This document shows positions 2,097-35,103 of a stretch of 64,000 nt of DNA, in pieces. Both the position numbers and the translations under genes were made by a program. This stretch comes from Eledone cirrhosa. Taxonomy: Eukaryota. Positions within the stretch are counted from its first letter, which is position 1, and each line of letters begins with the position of its first letter. The stretch is taken from assembly GCA_964016885.1 (NCBI GenBank), contig OZ024762.1, positions 11,966,001-12,030,000 of the forward strand, written 5' to 3'. The notes beneath the pieces were generated by a model. That model had not been told where the DNA came from. It did no database searches and worked only from the letters and a program-made list of their open reading frames with translations.

Positions 2097-2356
2097 GAAG
2101 AGAGATAGACAGAGAGGGAGAAAGACAGACAGAGAGAGGGAGAGAGAGAGTCAGACAGAGAGAGGGAGAGAGAGTCAGACAGAGAGGGAGAGAGAGACAC
2201 AGAAAGAGAGGGAGAGAGAGAGAAAGGAACTAAATAAAGTTAGTGATAGAAATTCTTAATAACTGATCACACTAACACATAAATACATATATATATATAC
2301 GTGTGTGTGTGTGAGAGCATCTGTGTGTATGTATGTATGTATATATATATATATAT

Positions 2357-2464
2357 AAATTATTAAAAAAATAATGAATAAACAAAGAAACAGTTCCTTA
2401 TATTAAAAAAATTTTAATATAAGGAACTGTTTCTTTGTTTATTCATTATTTTTTTAATAATTTA
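2357..2464. repeat. Near-perfect palindrome (~52-bp arms) at the edge of a (TA)n-embedded element
   Basis: TAAATTATTAAAAAAATAATGAATAAACAAAGAAACAGTTCCTTATATTAAAA followed directly by its reverse complement. Confidence 0.9.
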
Positions 2465-2591
2465 TCTTGACTCTGTTTTCCGTTTATTTTTCACCGAAAG
2501 TAGTTTTTGAATGCATCTCTTTTCATGATATCCGGATTACATTGAGTTCTTCATACGGATTGGACACTACCGTAAACTTTTGGTAGATTTA

Positions 2592-2638
<47 letters not shown>

Positions 2639-2693
2639 ATTTAAAACTGCACTATCCACAAGTGTTTTTTAGCCTTCATATCATGTTCTCCTG

Positions 2694-2760
2694 TTTTATC
2701 TGATGAAAACACAAATATTATTGCTTGATGATGTTTGTTTTTGAAATGCGCATAATAAAA
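2694..2760 (+). ncRNA. Type I hammerhead ribozyme motif (Penelope pLTR-like)
   Basis: Stem I TTTTAT/ATAAAA; core CTGATGA (2700-2706); 12-bp stem II with one mismatch; GAAA (2743-2746); minimal palindromic stem III T-GCGC-A; cleavage triplet AUA. The 10.1-11.1 pair is A-U instead of G-C. Confidence 0.65.
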
Positions 2761-2943
2761 TATATGGAACTCCTTTAACCATCTTTTGATCTTATATTAT
2801 GTATACTCCAGTCCCACAAACTGTAGAGTGCTTCTTATCCGATATCTGCATTGCTTTATTGTACTACAATAAAACTCACCTCCTACATATATATATATAT
2901 ATATATAAATGAAAGGTATAGAAAATATTGTAGCAAAAAGCCA

Positions 2944-2975
<32 letters not shown>

Positions 2976-3024
2976 ATAATATATATGGAAACTATATTTA
3001 TAAAACCATATTTATTCTATTTTA

Positions 3025-3081
3025 TTCTATTATATATATTTCAAGGGTATTAAAATTTTGGTACGCTATCATCAGATAAAA
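3025..3081 (-). ncRNA. Degenerate type I hammerhead ribozyme motif, same family
   Basis: Minus strand reads TTTTAT-CTGATGA-tagcgtac...ataccctt-GAAA-TATATA-TA-ATAGAA; stem II partly disrupted. Confidence 0.55.
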
Positions 3082-3109
3082 TACGAAATGTTTTATAAAT
3101 GTTGACATA

Positions 3110-3140
<31 letters not shown>

Positions 3141-7503: not shown

Positions 7504-8074
7504 AAAATATTTTATTGTGAAAACATCGTTGTTGTTGTCAGCAGATTGTCAGAATCTAACGAATCTGACAATCTACTGTGTGTGTGTGTGTCCAGCAGTA
7601 TAGTTCCCTAAACTCTCATCAATGTAGCCCCCAAGACACCACAAATCCCATATATATATATATATATAGGAAAAGAGTCAGGACCCCGAGGGCTGAGCTC
7701 CGGTCGTTTCGACAGCTAGTTCTGAACTCTTTTTCCTATTACCCACTCTACTACCCATAGTATCGAGTACTCTGGTGGGTTATGGTCCACCTGGTTCCTT
7801 ACCACACTTCCTTCGTTATATATATATATATGTATATATATACATACACACACACATATATTATTAACAATTCTAACAACGATGTTTTCACAATGTTTGC
7901 CGGTATAGAGTTACCTTTCTTTAATTCTACTTCCGTATTTAATGGTGACGATGACAATAAAGAGAGATATTTATTTGTTAGTTACATGAAACTAATTCAC
8001 ACACGTCCTTACCGTAACCAGTCAATGATATGGGAAAAAATACAATGACTTAGACATTAAATGGAAATTAAATT

Positions 8075-15678: not shown

Positions 15679-15885
15679 TAGTTATGTAATAAACAACATA
15701 AGACAATTATTCCATTTACCAAAGGTTTCACGAAGACAAACAAGCTCAACACAGACGTCTGAAATTGCTCATCAGATAAAATTTCATTCTGATGAGCAAT
15801 TTCAGACGTCTGTGTCGAGCTTGTTTGTCTTCGTGAAACCTTTGGTAAATGGAATAATTGTCTTATGTTGTTTATTACATAACTA
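15679..15885. repeat. ~98-bp-arm palindrome carrying two opposed hammerhead cores (Penelope pLTR-like)
   Basis: Arms identical except one base, 11-nt spacer; flanked by (TA)n on the left. Confidence 0.9.
15783..15853 (+). ncRNA. Type I hammerhead ribozyme motif
   Basis: Stem I TTCATT/AATGGA; CTGATGA 15789-15795; GAAA 15835-15838; stem III CC-TTT-GG; GUA cleavage triplet; stem II imperfect with G.U closing pair. Confidence 0.6.
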
Positions 15886-16159: not shown

Positions 16160-16600
16160 TACATTACATATATAAAAACTAATAAAACATACCAAATAAA
16201 GCCGACCACTTTAAGAGACCCCACCCACGATTTAACGGACCAACAACAAGAAAGGTTTAAAGTTTAGGTACAAGTCCAGTAATTTGAGTGGAAGAAGGGT
16301 AGAATCGTCGGTTATACCTCACCCCCTGCCAGTATTTCATTGATCCTTTATTTTATCGATCCCTTTCCGAAAAGATGACAGTCAAAGTTGAAAGAATATA
16401 TTTAGAGTGTGAAAATGTATTGTCATTACCATAACTATAAAAACTCAACTATCAAACTACATTGTCAAAGATGTAGTAAATACACATCACACTTTCTTTA
16501 TTATTAAATAATCTATATACAATATATATATATATATATATGCCAATAATGGAATTGAATCATTAAGACAGATGAGGTATGTCATACATCAAATCATATA

Positions 16601-16663
16601 TTTTATCCGACGAGGACGTACTGAAAAAACAGCAGAGGTACCTTCGAAATATATATAATAAAA
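16601..16663 (+). ncRNA. Type I hammerhead ribozyme motif (U4C variant), same family as 2694
   Basis: TTTTAT-CCGACGA-GGACGTAC...GTACCTTC-GAAA-TATATA-TA-ATAAAA; downstream ACTCCAG...CTGTAGAGTGCTT shared with ~2805-2835. Confidence 0.6.
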
Positions 16664-17136
16664 CATGTATTTTGATTATGTGAATGTCTTCATTTATTAA
16701 TATTTTGAATATTATTAATAACTCCAGAAAACTTCACTGTAGAGTGCTTTTAATCTATTGTAAAACTATATTCATTGAGTAATCAATGAACCATATTAAT
16801 CTTTGGTTATATTTGTGTGTGTGTATGTATATATATATATATAAGTTTCAGAAGATCCTGTTAAGGGTGAAAGCAGCGATTCTTTGCTTAAACTTTAATC
16901 TGTTATTTTAATAAATATCTATGATTAATATAGATTAAAGTTTAAGCAAATAATTTCTGCTCACACCCTATTACGGGGTCTTTATATATAATTTGTTGGG
17001 ATTCAACAAGTTTAAACATTTTTATAACTGATATAAAGCACTCAACAGCTTAGTGGAGTAAATATACAATATATTAATAAATGGAAACTATATTTATAAA
17101 ACCATATTTATTTTATTATACATATTTCAAGGGCCA

Positions 17137-17172
<36 letters not shown>

Positions 17173-18089: not shown

Positions 18090-18310
18090 CTTCCAGGGAC
18101 GGCTGTAATTGCACTTTTTTTCCAAAATCCTTGTTTGCTGTGGTTTGTTGTTGTTGTTGTTGTTGTTACAGAAGCTGAGTGAAAGATTGGATGATGATGA
18201 TGATGATGATGATTATGATGATAGTTGTTGGCAGTAGCAGTGGTGGTGGCGGCGGCGGTGGTGGTTGTGGTTGTGGTGTTAGTGGACAAAGCAGGACCAT
18301 AAGTGGACAT
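18090..18310 (-). CDS. Probable first coding exon of an unidentified gene continuing leftward (Thr/His-rich N-terminus)
   Basis: ATG at 18310 opens MSTYGPALS...[14 protein letters not shown]...[15 protein letters not shown], ending at a consensus AAG|GTGAGT donor (phase 2); promoter motifs ~900 bp upstream; no downstream exon recognised in the window. Confidence 0.55.
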
Positions 18311-19239: not shown

Positions 19240-19312
19240 AATGACGTGCTTCGCTTGCCGGAAACCCGTGTAACCTAAAGATGGCTGATTGTCTGTCAAG
19301 TGCGCATGCGTA
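19240..19312. promoter_or_regulatory. Housekeeping-type promoter motif cluster
   Basis: Within ~70 bp: TGACGT (CRE half-site), CCGGAA (ETS), AAGATGGCTG (YY1-like) and TGCGCATGCG (NRF1-like); local CpG enrichment. Confidence 0.55.
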
Positions 19313-23889: not shown

Positions 23890-24707
23890 GGCACTACCAT
23901 GCTATTAGCTGTCAGAAGTGAAAGTTTCGTCAACCTTCTCAATCGTAAACACCGTTTATTTCTGTATTACCACGCGTTATTTTAATAAAGCATATCGATG
24001 TAAGTGGAGTTACTTAAATGAAAATATAGGTGTGCCTTAAAAGGGCCAAATTAGAAAACAAATTTAAGTTAATTAGAAAACAAGTCATGGTTATCAAATA
24101 AATTGGATTTAATCATTTATATTTTCATAGTCATGGTTATCAATGTAGAAAACAAGTCATTTTCACCAACAGTGGAGTTAACTTAAATGAAAATATAGGT
24201 GGCCCTTAAAAGGGCCAAATTAGAAAACAAATATATGGTTATCAAATTTTTTTCACCAACCCTATACATGAAATTGATAACCATGACTATGAAAATTTAA
24301 ATGATTAAATCTAATTTATTTGATAACCATGACTTGTTTTCTAATTAACTTAAATTTGTTTTCTAATTTGGCCTTTTTAAGGGCCACCTATATTTTCATT
24401 TAAGTAACTCCACTTACATCGATATGCTTTATTAAAATAACTGTTTCTACTTTAGGCACAAGGCCAGCAATTACCCAGTGCATTACTGGTACTTTATTTT
24501 ATCGACCCCATAAGGATGAAAGCCAAAGTCAACCTCGGCGGGATTTGAACTCAGATCGTAAAGGGACGTAACTATGCTGGAAAGCACGCCGTCCGACCCT
24601 CTACCGATACTGCCAATTAACGCGTGGTAATACGGAAATAAACGATGTTTACGATTGAGAAGGTTGACGAAATTTTTACTTCTGACAGCTAATAGCATGG
24701 TAGTGCC
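23890..24707. mobile_element. Long-TIR MITE with 8-bp TSD (Merlin-like), SINE nested in right arm
   Basis: Termini GGCACTACCATGC...GCATGGTAGTGCC; ~255-bp inverted arms; direct repeat GTGAATTA at 23882-23889 and 24708-24715; family-1 SINE at ~24441-24618 interrupts the right arm. Confidence 0.8.
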
Positions 24708-27974: not shown

Positions 27975-28062
27975 GACCTGCTGGGTGTCAGTATGATTCT
28001 TCCATTAATAGGGACCCATGTGAGAGATATGGGAGCTTCTTCAACAACTGTTGGAGTGCTAG
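27975..28062 (+). CDS. MFSD9: MFSD9-like, coding exon 2
   Basis: TTAG|DLLGVSMILPLIGTHVRDMGASSTTVGVL-G|GTAAGT; phase 0 to 1. Confidence 0.92.
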
Positions 28063-28724
28063 GTAAGTGGAACACTTTTCTTTGTGATTAAAAACTGCTC
28101 CCTCCACTCTGCCTTAAGTTAAGGGTTCTACTAGGTTTGAAATGCCCAGGACATGCTGTATGTCAGGACAGCATCCCTATGACTCCATCTTAAGTTAAGG
28201 GTTCCACCAAGTGTGAAATACCCAGGAGACCCTCCCTACAACTCCATCTTAAGTTAAGGGTTCCATCAAGTTTGAAATGACCAGGACATGCCGTATGTCA
28301 GGACAGCACCCCTACAAGTTCCATTAGGTATTAAGGACCCTTTCATCTCGTCTACATTCTTTGACATCATCCTTCTTATGTCTGCCTTTCCCTGTAGCCA
28401 GACACCTTTCCTGACACCGACATATACTTTATTTCATGAATGGTATACACCACTGTCAACTAGTATAACATACAATACTGTCAACACCACCACCATCACT
28501 ACCGACACCACCACCAACACCACTATCATCAACACCACCACCCCCACCAATACCATCACCAACAACTCCCAACCACCAATACCATCACCAACAACAACAC
28601 CACCAACACCACACCACCATCAACAACACCCCCACCACCAAACCCACCTCCACCACCACCATTTATTATATCTCTATAAATATTTAATCTATATCACTAT
28701 TTTAATTAAGTTGTTAATTTCCAG

Positions 28725-28768
28725 GATCTGTCTACGGAGCCTTACAACTGTTCTCAAGCCCAATTGTT
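28725..28768 (+). CDS. MFSD9: MFSD9-like, coding exon 3
   Basis: CCAG|(G)SVYGALQLFSSPIV|GTGAGT; phase 1 to 0. Confidence 0.92.
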
Positions 28769-29361
28769 GTGAGTAATTAATTAAAATTAATTAAAATTAA
28801 TTAAAAAATGTTTTTATTTGTTTCAAAGAGAATATCTTTTTTTTGTTGTTGCTTATTTTATTGTACTTGTCTATTGTACCTCTGTCTTCTTCAACTAGGT
28901 GGAGCTGTCCCTTCCTCAGTCTCCAGCCCTATACATAGCTTTGTATATCTGCTGCCTACTAGGTCTACCTGACCCTTCCTAAGTTTCCATTCTATTGATA
29001 GCTTTATCCATCTACTGTCATTTGTACACACTACATGCCCTGACTCCCTTGAATTATCAATCTTACATCTCCCTATTGTGCTTGACTATGTAAACCTGTC
29101 CCTGCCAAAGTCTCCAGCTCTGTACCTAGCTTTGTCAGTTTGTTGTCATTTGTCATATACCCTGTCCACTTCCGTTTTCTCTTCTTATCTCTCATTTTGT
29201 TGTCTGTCTACTTCGACTATGTAAACCTATCTCTGCCAAAGTCCCCACTCTGTAGATAGCTATGTCTATCTCTTGTCATTTATACACACCTGATTCCCTG
29301 ACCCACTTCATTATCAATCTCATATCTCCATTTTGTCCTGTCATCTTCAACTATAGAAACC

Positions 29362-29760
29362 TGAGAAGAAACATGGACACTTTCATTCAAACAACGAAAG
29401 CACCTGGATGGCTTTTACACTCGCTAGCTTCAATGCATTCAGAACATAAGCTGGTGACATCTGCCTTTGAGAGAGATATATGCCGACCTCCCACGCATAT
29501 CTGTCGTTGTATGTAAAAGAAGAGTAAGATTTGCTGGCCTCTGCCATCGTGCCACCTACGAGGCTGTGTCCCCATAAGTGCTTTGGAAACCCCAAGCAGT
29601 CACTAATAACAGAGGGCGCAAGCTCTCCTATCTTGATGTAATCTCCAGAGATTCCGGTATTGAAATCCAGGACTTGGCAGCGGCAATGAACGACAGACCC
29701 ACGTGGAGATCAATTGTTGAGTCCATTTCGGCTGAGACCTCTGGATGATGATGATGATGA
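29362..29760 (+). mobile_element. Degenerate RTE-like LINE 3' end with (GAT)n tail
   Basis: Remnant peptide ETWTL..KHLDGFYTR..QNISW..LPRISVVVCKRRVRFAGLCHR..LWKP..RGRK..AMNDRPTWR with stops/frameshifts. Confidence 0.7.
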
Positions 29761-30373
29761 TATAAACCTGTCTCTGCCTAAATTTCCGTCCTCTACATAG
29801 CTTTGTCTATATGTTGTCACTTGTTTATGCCACATGCTCTGACACCCTTCAATTACCAGTCCCATATCTCTATTTAATCCCCTGTCCTCCTTGACTAGGT
29901 CTACCTGTCCGTGCTTGTCTACAGCCCTGACCTAGTTTTTGTCTATCTGCTGTCATTTGTCATATGTTCTGTCAACTTCTGTTTTCTCTTCTCATCTCTC
30001 CGTTTTATCCTCTGTCTTCCTCGATTAAGTGTATGTGTCCCTCCCTCAATCTCCACCCTAAACATAACTTTGTCTATCTGTTGTCATTTGTACACACCAC
30101 ATGCCCTAACTCCCTTCCTTTATCAAACTCATGTCTCCATTTTGTCTCCTCTCCTCCTCAACTAAATGTACCTATCCCTTTCTAAGTCTCCAGCCCTATA
30201 CATAACTTTGTCTACCTATTGTCATTTATACACGCCACACTCCCTGACCCCCTTCAATTATCAATCCTGTCTCCCAATTTTGTGCCCTGTCCCCTTAACT
30301 TGATAACCTGTCTTCCTCCTTGTATGACATTCTATAACATATTGAAGAGTGAATCAATATTATATCATTTCAG

Positions 30374-30503
30374 GGTAAATGGAGTGATGTTACAGGCAGA
30401 AGACTTTCTCTGATTATCTGTATGTCATTTACAGCATTTGGATACAGTTTAATTGGTTTCGCTTCCTCAATTGCTTTCATAGCTGTGGCTCGAGTTATCT
30501 TAG
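30374..30503 (+). CDS. MFSD9: MFSD9-like, coding exon 4
   Basis: TTCAG|GKWSDVTGRRLSLIICMSFTAFGYSLIGFASSIAFIAVARVIL-G|GTAAGT; contains MFS motif A (GxxSDxxGRR). Confidence 0.95.
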
Positions 30504-30595
30504 GTAAGTATTTCAACAAATATTTGTGAAATTGAAGTAAGCATCAATGTTGTTTGACTGTGAAATATAGTCGTATAAGTTGGGTAATGCATTAA

Positions 30596-30799
30596 CCCTT
30601 TAGCATTTAAACTGGCCATATTCGGCCAGAATACTCTCACCTCTTTCTGTTCAAACCGGCCACTCATGCAGATGTTAAGGTATTGTTCTCAAAATAAATA
30701 TCAAAATCTCGTAGGTTTGATATTATGTGAGATATGTGAGGTAAAGCCTTTACTGTGAAAATACAATAGTATATATAGAGTAATGTAAATGCTAAAGGG
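30596..30799 (+). mobile_element. piggyBac-type MITE filling most of MFSD9 intron 4
   Basis: TTAA|CCCTTTAGCATTTA ... TAAATGCTAAAGGG|TTAA; related copies ~4927-5105, 42259-43416, ~62850-62980. Confidence 0.8.
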
Positions 30800-30833
30800 T
30801 TAAGAAACTAAACATTTTTTTCTTTCCTTTTAG

Positions 30834-31043
30834 GAATATTTAAACACAGTCTAAACATTAGCAAGTCTTTCATAGCTGATACTGTGCCACCATCAGAACA
30901 GTCATCAGTTCTAGGAGCTTATAATTCCTTCTCCAGTATTGGTTTCATTGTTGGTCCAACATTAGGAGGTCACATAGCCGAACGTCCAGGAGGTTTTTTC
31001 CTTATGGCTAACCTAGCAGGTTTCATCTTCATCCTGAATGCCT
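30834..31043 (+). CDS. MFSD9: MFSD9-like, coding exon 5
   Basis: TTTAG|(G)IFKHSLNISKSFIADTVPPSEQSSVLGAYNSFSSIGFIVGPTLGGHIAERPGGFFLMANLAGFIFILNA|GTAAGT; GIFKH is an MFSD9-type motif. Confidence 0.95.
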
Positions 31044-31157
31044 GTAAGTAATTCAATTTTTCTTCTTTCATTGTAACAGGCTGATGCCATAGACATTCCA
31101 CAGTTCATTAATTAGAAACAACCACCACATATTATAGATTAATATGGCATTTTAAGT

Positions 31158-31194
<37 letters not shown>

Positions 31195-31338
31195 AAAAAG
31201 TATGACCCCGACGGCAGAGCTCAAGCCACTTCGACGGGTATTTCTGCCGTCGGGGTCATACTTTTTCCTATTTCCCACTCTACTACCCTAAGTATTGAAT
31301 ACTCTGGTGCATTATAGTCCTTACCACAATTCCTTTGT

Positions 31339-31370
<32 letters not shown>

Positions 31371-31552
31371 GGATAACAAAATATCGTTATAGGTAATCCA
31401 ATTAGAGGTTGTGAATACTTTCGTATTTAAAATTGAGTGGCACTGTTTTTAGTGTTCAGCAATTTTTAGACAACTCTATCAGTGAAACAATTGTTAGACT
31501 GCAAATAAATCCCCTTTTTTGTACTGTTGACCATATTATTCTCCACTTTTTC

Positions 31553-31601
<49 letters not shown>

Positions 31602-31864
31602 CAAATGAATGAATGAAGGAATTACAAGCTGTTAAAACAAGTTCTTTATAAAGAACTTGTTTTAACAGCTTGTAACTCCTTCTTTCAATTATTTGCTTAT
31701 TCCTGCTCTGCTTCAACAATCTACTAAATATTAAATCTCCTCTAATATTTAACTCTGCTAACACAAGCATTGAGCACACTCCACTTCGGTTATTGGCATT
31801 TAGTAATCTGTATCACACGTCTCTGTATCTCTCTATTTCCTCCTCTCCTACGATACTTATACCC

Positions 31865-31901
<37 letters not shown>

Positions 31902-32134
31902 TAACAGATTAAAGTTTAAGTAAAGAATCGCTGCTTTCGCCCTTAACGGGATCTTCGGAAGTCCCCTCCTCCTTATTGGGGAATTTTTCCTAGTTTCTTT
32001 TTTTGTTACATCCTTTGTTTCTGTTTTTTTACACGCAGAAATGCCCATTTGTATCGTCCTGTGCTGTCCTTAATGTCTACTTTATGTCAACCCTTGTGGT
32101 TAATAAAGAAAGCGTTATTACTTTTATTATTATG

Positions 32135-32297
32135 GGCTGAGTTCAAATCCCGTCGAGGTTAACTTTGCCTTTCGTCCTTACGGGGGTCGATAAAATAAAG
32201 TACCAGTCATGCACTAGGGTCGATTTAATCGACTTTCCCCTCCTCCAAAATTACTGGCCTTGTGCCTATATAAGAAACCATTATTATTATTATTATT
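32135..32297 (+). mobile_element. SINE family 1 ending in an (ATT)n tail at the exon 6 acceptor
   Basis: CTGAGTTCAAATCCC...GCCTTTCGTCCTTACGGGGGTCGATAAAATAAAGTACCAG...GAAACCATTATTATT. Confidence 0.8.
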
Positions 32298-32301
32298 GCA
32301 G

Positions 32302-32687
32302 TGATAGTTTGGCTGCTGCTTCCGGCCGCTCGTAAACCAACCACCGCCACTTTACAGAGGTTAGATTCAGTGTTAAGTACCAGAAAATTAATATCAGATG
32401 AAATCAACTTCAACCCTAAGAGGTTCTTCCAATCTATGAAGAAGATAGAATGGAATCAACTATGGGACATGTTTGCCATCCGATTCCTGCTTGGTTTCTC
32501 CATCATTGTCTTCCGAAGTAATCTAAACATCATGCTCCAGTCTCGTTTCAATATTTCACCACGACACAATGGTTACTTAACCTCATACAGTGGCATTGTC
32601 TCCACGGTGGCTGGCTTTCTAGTCGGAGGTCTCACTAAACTCTACAAAAATGAACCCAAGCTCTTTCTTTCCATGTCTGTGTTTCAG
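32302..32687 (+). CDS. MFSD9: MFSD9-like, coding exon 6
   Basis: GCAG|(L)IVWLLLP...WDMFAIRFLLGFSIIVFRSNL...SVFQ|GTAAGA; phase 1 to 0. Confidence 0.93.
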
Positions 32688-33404
32688 GTAAGACCTTTTG
32701 ATTCTTTTACATGACAAAAAAAACACCCAGTCCACCCTTTATGGTGGTGGTGGTGGTGTTGGGAACATGACAAAAACCACCTAGTTAACCCTGTAAGATG
32801 GTTGCACTGGTGACATGAAAAAAAAAAGCACCCAGTCCACCCTGTAATGACCGTGTTAATGATACATGACAAAAAACATACCCACCCAATCTACCCTGTA
32901 AGGTGGTCATGCTGGTGACACAAAATAGAACCAGTTAACCCTGTAAGATGGTGGTTGTGCTAGTGACACAACAAAAACAATACCCAGTCCACCCTGTAAT
33001 GGTGGTGGTGGTGGTGGTGGTGGTGGGAACATCACAAAAACCACCTAGTTAACCCTGTAAGATGGTTGTACTGGTGACATGAAAAAAAAAGCACCCAGTC
33101 CGCCCTGTAATGGTGGTTGAGCTAATGATACATAACAAAAAAAAACCCACCCAATCCATGCTGTAAGGTGATCATGTTGGTGACAACGAAAAGCACCTGG
33201 TCCACACTGTAACATGATTGGCGTTAGGAAGGAAGGAAGGGTGTGTGTGTGTGCGCGTATATCTATATATATATATTTGACGCTGAAGCTCACAGTGGAG
33301 ATGACGAAGGACCGTGACAAGTGGAGAGATGCTGTACTGAATAAGACCCGTCCCACCCTTGCAAGCAGGGAAAAGCGGACATAAAATGATGATGATGATT
33401 ATAT

Positions 33405-34518
33405 ATATATGTGTGAATCTATCTTTATATATATGTGTGTGTGTGTGTATCTATCTTTATATGTGTGTGTGTGTCTATCTTTATATATGTGTGTGTGTGT
33501 GTCTATCTTTATATATGTGTGTGTATGTATCTATCTTTATATATGTGTGTGTGTATCTATCTTTATATATATGTGTGTATCTATCTTTATATATATGTGT
33601 ATCTATCTTTATATGTGTGTGTATCTATCTTTATATATATATGTGTGTATCTATCTTTATATATGTGTGTGTGTATCTATCTTTATATATATGTGTGTGT
33701 GTATCTATCTTTATATATATGTGTGTGTGTATCTATCTTTATATATATGTGTGTGTGTATCTATCTTTATATATATGTGTGTGTGTATCTATCTTTATAT
33801 ATGTGTGTGTATCTATCTTTATATATATGTGTGTGTATCTATCTTTATATATATGTGTGTCTATCTATCTTTATATATATGTGTGTCTATCTATCTTTAT
33901 ATATATGTGTGTGTATCTATCTTTATATATATGTGTGTGTATCTATCTTTATATATATATGTGTGTGTATCTATCTTTATATATGTGTGTGTGTATCTAT
34001 CTTTATATATGTGTGTGTGTATCTATCTTTATATATGTGTGTGTGTATCTATCTTTATATATATATGTGTGTATCTATCTTTATATATATATGTGTGTGT
34101 ATCTATCTTTATATATATATGTGTGTGTATCTATCTTTATATATATATATGTGTGTATCTATCTTTATATATATATATGTGTGTATCTATCTTTATATAT
34201 ATATATATGTGTGTATCTATCTTTATATATATATATATGTGTGTATCTATCTTTATATATATATATATGTGTGTATCTATCTTTATATATATATATATGT
34301 GTGTATCTATCTTTATATATATATATATGTGTGTATCTATCTTTATATATATATATATGTGTGTATCTATCTTTATATATATATATATGTGTGTATCTAT
34401 CTTTATATATATATATATGTGTGTATCTATCTTTATATATATGTGTGTGTATCTATCTTTATATATATGTGTGTGTATCTATCTTTATATATGTGTGTGT
34501 GTGTGTATCTATCTTTAT
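33405..34518. repeat. Compound microsatellite/minisatellite (ATCTATCTTT(AT)n(GT)n)
   Basis: Directly visible; source of spurious 360-412-aa ORFs. Confidence 0.95.
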
Positions 34519-34767
34519 GATGAGGGTTGCACATTTTTTTTCGGGGGTATGTGTTACCCATATAAACTGTCTCCCTCTATTGGGGAAAATCGACTAACTT
34601 TTAAATTCCATTTGTGATAACATTTTACACGTTTTTATTGTATGTAAACTTCCCCCTTTGTATTTGTCCCCTTCTTTTGTGCCCCTGTGGCTAATAAAGA
34701 AATATATCTTTATATATGTGTGTGTGTGTGTATATTTAAATACATTATTTTCTATTTTCTATTTCAG

Positions 34768-35103
34768 ATAGTTATCCTATTCATGCTGGGCATAAGCCAG
34801 TCATTTGTGGCCTTCGTCATCTTCTTCGGTGCTCTCAGTCTGGCCACATCAGTTATGAGAGTCGTTGGAACAAGACTAATGTTACTTCGAGGAGCACAGC
34901 AGGGTTCCGGTACGCTACTGGGCCTCAGTCAAAGTTTCATGTCTATAGCACGCATGATCTCACCTTTCATTTCCGGCATTCTCATGGAAATCAACGTGTC
35001 CATTCCAGCCTTCCTCGGAGCTGCTGCCACCTTAATTGCGTCGGTCCTTATTTTTTTATACCCTCAAGACAAACGGCCGGGCTCAAAGGTGAAAAAGTCT
35101 TGA
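34768..35103 (+). CDS. MFSD9: MFSD9-like, final coding exon 7 (total CDS 1272 nt, 423 aa)
   Basis: TTTCAG|IVILFMLG...GTLLGLSQSFMSIARMISPFISG...KVKKS-TGA; hydrophobic MFS C-terminal helices. Confidence 0.93.
   Translation: MVILFMLGISQSFVAFVIFFGALSLATSVMRVVGTRLMLLRGAQQGSGTLLGLSQSFMSIARMISPFISGILMEINVSIPAFLGAAATLIASVLIFLYPQDKRPGSKVKKS

What the first reader, a model, noticed from the sequence alone, without database searches (positions are those of the whole stretch)
2694..3081. Two facing type I hammerhead ribozyme motifs in microsatellite-embedded elements
Seen: the + motif (2694-2760) and - motif (3025-3081) both show stem I TTTTAT/ATARAA, CTGATGA, stem II, GAAA, a 6-nt palindromic stem III (TGCGCA or TATATA) and an AUA triplet. 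Known: minimal type I hammerheads with palindromic stem III occur in Penelope pLTRs and are thought to cleave as dimers. They lie in the presumed first intron of the gene starting at 18310, so the minus copy would be co-transcribed. Neither has the G-C 10.1-11.1 pair, so activity may be low.
Basis: partly seen in the sequence, partly recalled or inferred. Interest (0 to 1): 0.72.

Follow-up and report, generated by a model that had tools for sequence, protein, structure and literature searches.

The report
Hammerhead tails of Hydra-type Penelope retrotransposons
The two motifs are real hammerhead-shaped RNA sequences left by separate insertions of two very common jumping-gene families in an octopus-type genome; the families are predicted to cut their own RNA in pairs, but these two copies face each other by chance and the one read with the host gene is damaged and likely inactive.

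Summary
Both motifs are real: they are the only strict hits in the window, and 1 of 300 shuffles gave any. Each is the 3' end of a different Penelope-like retrotransposon family, with 18,772 and 13,457 genome matches. Full-length relatives are pLTR-ORF-pLTR units whose protein folds most like telomerase and carries most Hydra-clade motifs. Stem III is an 8-nt palindrome, self-complementary in all four amplified variants, and stem II covaries around a conserved C·Y mismatch. Lacking G10.1-C11.1 is normal in this clade (18 of 25 published families). The facing layout is incidental: the copies lie on opposite strands, their stems III are incompatible, and the recurrent family layout is back-to-back. 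Both sit in a 26.9-kb TBC1D22 intron. The sense (minus) copy has a broken stem II; the intact copy is antisense. The plus copy spans the family's modal unit, from 63 nt before stem I to 136 nt past the cut site, so it was likely copied from uncut RNA. Cleavage is untested and no RNA run was listed. Hammerheads in Hydra elements are published, and this scan noted similar families on other DNA. New member of a known kind; modest interest.

The parts
2631..2888 (+). Family A insertion: 5'-truncated Hydra-type Penelope-like element, the family's modal unit (-63 before stem I to +136 after the cut site), between (TA)n tracts
   Evidence: 96.5% identical over 260 nt to the end repeat of full-length L061; ends mapped
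2692..2762 (+). Hammerhead A: stem I 2692-2699 with 2755-2762, core CTGATGA 2700-2706, stem II 2707-2742 (15 of 16 pairs, C-U at pair 4), GAAA 2743-2746, palindromic stem III 2746-2753, predicted cut after A2754
2805..2830 (+). Conserved bulged hairpin in the tail, between the two fixed 3' ends of the family
   Evidence: 93 of 111 tails carrying the anchor motif match the hairpin pattern, loci partly redundant; also in the window's other copies
2972..3110 (-). Family B insertion: 5'-truncated, ending at the family's short 3' end, between (TA)n tracts; carries a private 10-nt duplication just after the hammerhead
   Evidence: alignment with 11 relatives; about 80% identical to the end repeats of full-length L065
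3023..3083 (-). Hammerhead B, decayed: U-U at 10.1-11.1 (shared by a subfamily) and a private GG-to-AA change that breaks two stem II pairs; predicted cut site after position 3031
   Evidence: position 3051 differs from almost all laid contigs
2590..2636 (.). (TA)n tract at the 5' junction of the family A copy
2886..2971 (.). Spacer between the two insertions: (TA)n, 35 nt of other sequence, (TA)n
18091..18310 (-). First coding exon of the host TBC1D22-family gene, followed by a GT donor; the 26.9-kb intron after it contains both motifs

Best explanation
The two motifs are hammerhead folds in the 3' end repeats of two abundant Hydra-type Penelope-like retrotransposon families, inserted separately into neighbouring (TA)n tracts of a TBC1D22 intron; in the parent elements the hammerhead likely cuts the element's RNA as a pair, while these two truncated copies are likely passengers. 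Shown: family membership, copy numbers, pLTR-ORF-pLTR parents, (TA)n junctions, two fixed 3' ends, stem covariation, self-complementary stem III, and the decay of the minus copy. Inferred: in a full-length transcript the hammerheads of the two end repeats pair through the 8-nt palindrome and cut out a unit-length RNA, which may be ligated to a circle. Also inferred: the encoded GIY-YIG nuclease opens (TA)n DNA and the RT primes at about +50 and +136 past the cut site, and short copies such as the plus copy come from the uncut 5' end of an RNA starting 63 nt before stem I.
For: Copy numbers 18,772 and 13,457 with reversed-pattern controls 0. Full-length parents with a hammerhead in each repeat: L061, L062, L068 (family A) and L065 (family B), units 3.3-3.9 kb. 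The family A protein model (pLDDT 81.7) matches telomerases at ranks 1-5; family B has a C-terminal GIY-YIG hit, E=1.5e-4; DKT, CxCx5C, CxxC and CxH motifs are in the translation as described for Hydra. Stem II pairs 1-3 and 5-7 are 94% paired in 97 distinct sequences, against 45-65% in slid registers and at most 87% in 2000 strand shuffles. Amplified stem III centres GCGC, ATAT, ATGT and ACGT are all self-complementary (ATGT by G-U); other classes total 169, 784, 568 and part of 942. The plus-copy double hammerhead is -32.7 kcal/mol against -21.2 for two monomers, while monomer stem III has pairing probability 0.0. 22 of 24 family A back-to-back insertions have one long and one short arm.
Against: No cleavage or expression data. 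Rfam finds no hammerhead match. For the B-type copies the double-hammerhead fold lies 2-5 kcal/mol above the predicted best two-strand fold, and for the plus copy the best fold is a slightly different one (-33.7 against -32.7). Covariation counts come from related sequences and from loci partly chosen for stem III variants. Pfam gave no RT or GIY-YIG hit for family A, and the family B hit is just under the curated cut-off (22.4 against 22.6). The RWK motif reads RWT, RWI or RWR, and units are longer than the <3 kb typical of Hydra. No tree with published Hydra proteins was built. Tens of thousands of copies span the cut site intact, so cutting is not required for every copying event.
Confidence: 0.8

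Rival explanations
1. The hammerhead fold in these families is no longer catalytic and is kept as a protein-binding or priming structure for the element's RT.
For: G10.1-C11.1 is present in only 5 of 97 stems II. Copies are templated across the uncut site. Published minimal PLE hammerheads cut poorly even as dimers (PMC4209133, part 2). The C-Y mismatch at pair 4 (94 of 97) looks like a recognition feature.
Against: The catalytic boxes, the UH site and a self-complementary stem III are kept between families whose proteins are only 44-61% identical. An axolotl hammerhead with U-U at the base of stem II cleaves 22% in 1 h as a monomer and better as a dimer (PMC7229834, passage).
Confidence: 0.13
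2. The facing pair, or the sense minus copy, has been adopted by the host and cuts or regulates TBC1D22 pre-mRNA.
For: The minus copy is sense to the host pre-mRNA. A B-type 3' half with a compatible stem III lies 14 kb upstream in the same intron, also in sense (8 of 8 pairs with G-U).
Against: The minus copy has private mutations that break stem II (pairing probabilities 0.0; double-hammerhead energy -3.4 against -7.8 for two monomers). The intact copy is antisense. Facing pairs are 2 of 42 near pairs in fetched loci, both more than 1.2 kb apart (sample enriched for back-to-back loci by my choice).
Confidence: 0.04
3. The motifs are chance matches in AT-rich repetitive DNA.
For: Rfam gives no hammerhead hit; single-strand folding z-scores are only -1.3.
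Against: 1 of 300 shuffles gives any strict hit; tens of thousands of copies with zero control matches; covariation across families.
Confidence: 0.01

Closest known systems
Hydra clade of C-terminal EN+ Penelope-like elements, including Hydra-1_Obim of Octopus bimaculoides (Craig et al. 2021, PMC8557442; passages, sections 6 and 11, supplement part 2 and search hits in its protein files seen)
   Same: Single ORF with RT and C-terminal GIY-YIG; DKT, CxCx5C, CxxC and CxH motifs; (TA)n targets; type I hammerhead near the 3' end; 5' truncation, inverted 5' copy and a tail at one end only; mostly no G10.1-C11.1 pair.
   Different: Different families: the Hydra-1_Obim hammerhead has another sequence. 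Here stem III is a perfect 8-nt palindrome (published Hydra ones mostly have a 1-3 nt loop). Stem II is longer in family A (16 positions) and has a conserved C-Y mismatch at pair 4 that I did not see in File S2. The one-sided tail is about 85 nt rather than 30-40. Units are 3.3-3.9 kb, and copy numbers are in the tens of thousands.
Minimal PLE hammerheads (Cervera and de la Pena 2014, PMC4209133; parts 1-2 of 4 read)
   Same: Located in pLTRs; mostly single motifs from truncated elements; palindromic stem III; pairs on opposite strands 100-700 bp apart are already reported; dimer and circle model.
   Different: These have a longer stem I (8 bp) and an 8-nt stem III, so they are not minimal, and they lack the G10.1-C11.1 pair that the paper calls highly conserved.
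Axolotl HHR_Amex2 of non-LTR retrozymes (Cervera and de la Pena 2020, PMC7229834; passages read)
   Same: Two-pair stem III with a tetraloop as a monomer, U-U at the base of stem II, better cleavage as a dimer.
   Different: Retrozymes are non-coding tandem repeats of about 350 bp; here the parents encode an RT-endonuclease and the copies are dispersed.

Membership tests
Type I hammerhead ribozyme | Core CUGANGA ... GAAA ... UH with three stems, stem I open | tested here: met
   both copies have all core letters
Type I hammerhead ribozyme | Stems supported by covariation across copies | tested here: met
   both-sided changes at stem II pairs 2, 3, 5, 6 and 8; stem I varies only on one side (A-U/G-U, U-A/U-G) and was partly fixed by the search pattern
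Type I hammerhead ribozyme | G10.1-C11.1 closing pair | tested here: not met
   A-U in the plus copy, U-U in the minus copy; 5 of 97 have G-C. Also absent in 18 of 25 published Hydra hammerheads
Type I hammerhead ribozyme | Match to an Rfam hammerhead model | tested here: not met
   no hammerhead family up to E=10
Type I hammerhead ribozyme | Site-specific self-cleavage | not testable with these tools
   needs in vitro transcription or end sequencing
Penelope-like element | Telomerase-like reverse transcriptase in the parent ORF | tested here: met
   model pLDDT 81.7; Foldseek ranks 1-5 are telomerases, E 3e-7 to 2e-6; one homologue has RVT_1 at E=3e-4
Penelope-like element | Partial tandem pLTRs, inverted 5' copy, 5' truncation, one-sided tail | tested here: met
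Hydra clade | C-terminal GIY-YIG endonuclease preceded by CxCx5C, with CxxC and CxH | tested here: met
   motifs read in the translation; PF01541 E=1.5e-4 in family B, just under its cut-off
Hydra clade | DKT in place of DKG | tested here: met
   (both families)
Hydra clade | N-terminal RWK motif | tested here: inconclusive
   RW is kept; the third residue is T or I in family A and R in family B
Hydra clade | Insertion into (TA)n | tested here: met
   53 of 71 family A 3' ends run into (TA)5; both window copies do
Hydra clade | Phylogenetic placement with published Hydra proteins | not tested
   compared by eye with Hydra-1_Obim and the supplement alignment; no tree built
Naiad clade | N-terminal endonuclease, DKA motif | tested here: not met
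   the endonuclease is C-terminal and the motif is DKT
Non-LTR retrozyme | Non-coding tandem repeats of 150-450 bp | tested here: not met
   parents encode an ORF of about 800 aa; copies are solo, back-to-back or full-length

The most novel reading that the evidence does not exclude
These octopod Hydra families use one RNA end for three jobs. A hammerhead variant with a 3-bp stem II, an invariant C-Y mismatch and a perfect 8-nt palindrome cuts only when two copies meet. A bulged tail hairpin positions the RT at two fixed priming sites about 85 nt apart on the two sides of one DNA break. Two kinds of template explain the copies: uncut capped RNA starting 63 nt before stem I gives the short mirror-image insertions, and cut, circularised RNA gives the longer-than-unit insertions.
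Probability: 0.3. Interest if true: 0.6.

Novelty: new member of a known kind. Interest (0 to 1): 0.27.

Why it matters
For the locus itself, little: two transposon remnants in an intron, one of them broken. For the families: the role of hammerheads in Penelope-like elements is stated to be unclear (PMC8557442, passage). More than 40,000 exact matches across three stem III classes, near-intact ORFs and fixed ends give a natural mutational data set and ready constructs for testing dimer cleavage and the circle model. They also show that Rfam misses an abundant hammerhead class.

Tried and rejected
Rfam scans: no hammerhead family. A DNA search of the own genome with 2637-2885 returned nothing because common words are skipped; pattern searches replaced it. 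Sequencing runs: no RNA holder listed; four runs of unrecorded kind were laid on 2640-3110 as contigs and showed no start or end sites, which contigs cannot show. Pfam and PDB sequence searches did not recognise the family A protein. A fold without alignment failed (pLDDT 33). The A:B heterodimer was rejected: 6 of 8 stem III pairs, -5.5 kcal/mol against -14.5 for the monomers. A cap-derived extra G at the -63 start was tested: 12 of 38 strands ending there are preceded by G, but only about five insertions are free of microhomology or palindrome ambiguity, so it is suggestive only. 5' ends of family B could not be mapped, because the one reference differs from most subfamilies upstream of about -30. 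Stem III classes GCG[A/G/T] and ATA[A/C/G] were not counted. Lunse et al. (RNA Biol 14:1499) is not held; I saw only its title and the review's summary (PMC6765202, passages). Literature searches listed no paper describing these particular families; they do not cover most subscription journals or Repbase/Dfam. Only part of the supplement of PMC8557442 was seen.

Full report
Observation. The plus motif has stem I at 2694, CTGATGA at 2700, GAAA at 2743 and the AUA triplet ending at 2754; the minus motif has the same parts at 3081, 3075, 3042 and 3031. A descriptor needing core, palindromic stem III and stem I found only these two sites in the window, and 1 of 300 locally dinucleotide-shuffled windows gave any hit. 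Rfam listed no hammerhead family on 2640-3120 up to E=10. Stem III is 8 nt long when A15.1 and U16.1 are counted, and stem I has 8 pairs.

What the motifs belong to. The genome holds 18,772 exact matches to the plus-type pattern (family A) and 13,457 to the minus-type pattern (family B and close relatives); reversed-pattern controls gave 0. A search anchored on family A flanks found 14,837 copies, and about 90 of the 100 listed have an intact core (counted by eye). Twelve stretches were fetched: ten chosen for spaced motif pairs and two window neighbours. Four of the ten hold a hammerhead in direct repeats on both sides of an ORF region: L061, L062 and L068 for A, L065 for B, with units of 3.3-3.9 kb. 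The longest family A frame (L063) is 821 codons between stops. Pfam did not recognise it; a family B fragment hit GIY-YIG at E=1.5e-4, just under the cut-off. A model built on 17 sequences has pLDDT 81.7, and its five best structural matches are telomerases. The translation shows DKT, YRDD, CxCx5C, CxxC and CxH, as described for the Hydra clade (PMC8557442, section 11), and resembles Hydra-1_Obim by eye. The RWK motif reads RWT, RWI or RWR, and no tree was built. The A and B proteins are 44-61% identical, so these are two distinct families.

The window copies. Copy A (2631-2888) is 96.5% identical to the end repeat of L061. Of 74 family A motif copies, 31 end at +133 to +138 after the cut site and 25 at +48 to +54; 11 more stop at +29 to +35, probably an artefact of a small indel, 3 run on and 4 end elsewhere. 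24 of 74 begin 63-65 nt before stem I (the two arms of one insertion count separately). The window copy is exactly -63 to +136. Copy B (2972-3110, minus) ends at its family's short end, as three of 11 aligned relatives do, and carries a private 10-nt duplication and a private GG-to-AA change in stem II; its U-U at 10.1-11.1 is shared with L043 and L054.

Structure. Across 97 distinct stem II sequences, pairs 1-3 and 5-7 are 94% paired, against 45-65% in slid registers and at most 87% in 2000 strand shuffles. Pairs 2, 3, 5, 6 and 8 change on both sides between families. Pair 4 is C-C or C-U in 94 of 97. These sequences are related and the loci were partly chosen for stem III variants, so this is support and not a probability. 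Amplified stem III centres are GCGC, ATAT, ATGT (7,991 in the ATBN class, 96 of 100 listed) and ACGT (32 of 100 listed of 942). All are self-complementary, ATGT through G-U. Other classes are small and look like decay after insertion: 169, 784 and 568. Two classes were not counted. As a monomer, copy A forms stems I and II, but stem III has probability 0.0. As a double hammerhead it reaches -32.7 kcal/mol against -21.2 for two monomers, 1 kcal/mol above the best two-strand fold. Copy B reaches only -3.4 against -7.8, while its intact relative L049 reaches -26.2 against -22.2.

The G10.1-C11.1 point. Only 5 of 97 stems II have it. In File S2 of PMC8557442, 7 of 25 Hydra families have G-C, 14 U-U, 3 G-U and 1 U-C (counted by eye). 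An axolotl hammerhead with U-U at this position and a two-pair stem III cleaves 22% in an hour as a monomer and better as a dimer (PMC7229834, passage). The missing pair therefore does not mark these copies as dead; for copy B the broken stem II does.

The facing layout. The copies are on opposite strands and cannot be in one transcript. Their stems III pair at 6 of 8 positions with positive duplex energy. Among 42 motif pairs within 1.5 kb in the fetched loci, 32 are back-to-back, 8 tandem and 2 facing, both over 1.2 kb apart; 12 loci were picked as back-to-back, so that class is inflated. Opposite-strand pairs are already noted for PLE hammerheads (PMC4209133, part 1). Two insertions into nearby (TA)n tracts explain the layout.

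Host gene. The exon at 18091-18310 (minus) matches the start of an Octopus bimaculoides TBC1D22B protein. The next exon lies 8.8 kb left of the window, and later exons match at 75-93%. Both motifs are in this 26.9-kb intron after the first coding exon; an upstream non-coding exon was not tested. Copy B is sense and decayed; copy A is antisense.

Mechanism. From known PLE biology (PMC4209133, parts 1-2; PMC6765202, passages): a transcript holding two end repeats can form a double hammerhead, cut out a unit RNA and perhaps circularise. Three observations here bear on this. First, 22 of 26 back-to-back insertions have one long and one short arm; two of the 26 are not family A. This suggests priming at two fixed RNA sites from the two sides of one break. 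A bulged hairpin lies between the sites in 93 of 111 tails (loci partly redundant). Second, 38 of 83 family A strands stop at -63, at a TCA initiator-like site (consensus recalled). 12 have a G before it, about five of them unambiguously, which hints at a capped start. Such copies span the cut site, so their template was uncut or re-joined. Third, the 5' repeats of full-length copies run past -63: 570 nt in L061 and at least 353 in L068, about 100 in L062. That needs a circle, a longer tandem transcript or a template jump. All three readings are inferences. No RNA run was listed, so expression and cleavage are open.

Known and new. Hammerheads in Hydra-clade elements, including an octopus family, are published. 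Five library searches listed no paper on these families. Earlier notes of this scan describe similar Hydra hammerheads in this and other genomes; none matched this DNA or protein by sequence or by place. My Hydra reading was stated before I saw them; the cap-G and two-end tests followed their leads. Verdict: real, explained, a new member of a known kind.

Noticed in passing
window 16570-16760 (+): Third Hydra-type hammerhead copy, from a subfamily with G10.1-C11.1; core CCGACGA, stem III ATATATAT, tail hairpin at 16721-16746; predicted to misfold as a monomer.
   Followed up: partly
window 16982-17140 (-): B-type fragment truncated inside stem II: GAAA, stem III ATATGTAT, cut site and tail but no CTGATGA; sense to the host gene.
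   Followed up: partly
window 15681-15885: Near-perfect fold-back with two back-to-back hammerhead-like motifs of another family (CTGATGA at 15789, long spacer, GAAA, stem III ACC-TTT-GGT); the best single-strand fold is not the hammerhead.
   Followed up: partly
window 2355-2590: Another repeat ending in (TA)n with a 5' fold-back; a 93% identical copy abuts the 3' end of full-length element L063. No hammerhead core seen.
   Followed up: partly
window about 27976-35103 (+): Exons of a probable MFS-type transporter gene, divergent from the TBC1D22 gene; read by eye, family name recalled.
   Followed up: no
window 19299-19312: GCGCATGCG motif (NRF1-like, recalled) about 1 kb upstream of the TBC1D22 start codon; possible promoter.
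   Followed up: no
window 24176-24221 (-): Rfam Histone3 stem-loop match above its gathering score (37 against 34 bits), inside a fold-back repeat with no histone ORF seen; probably a chance match.
   Followed up: no
L065:135-317, window 7649-7852 and 31174-31368: A further short (TA)n-flanked repeat family with several copies in the window.
   Followed up: no
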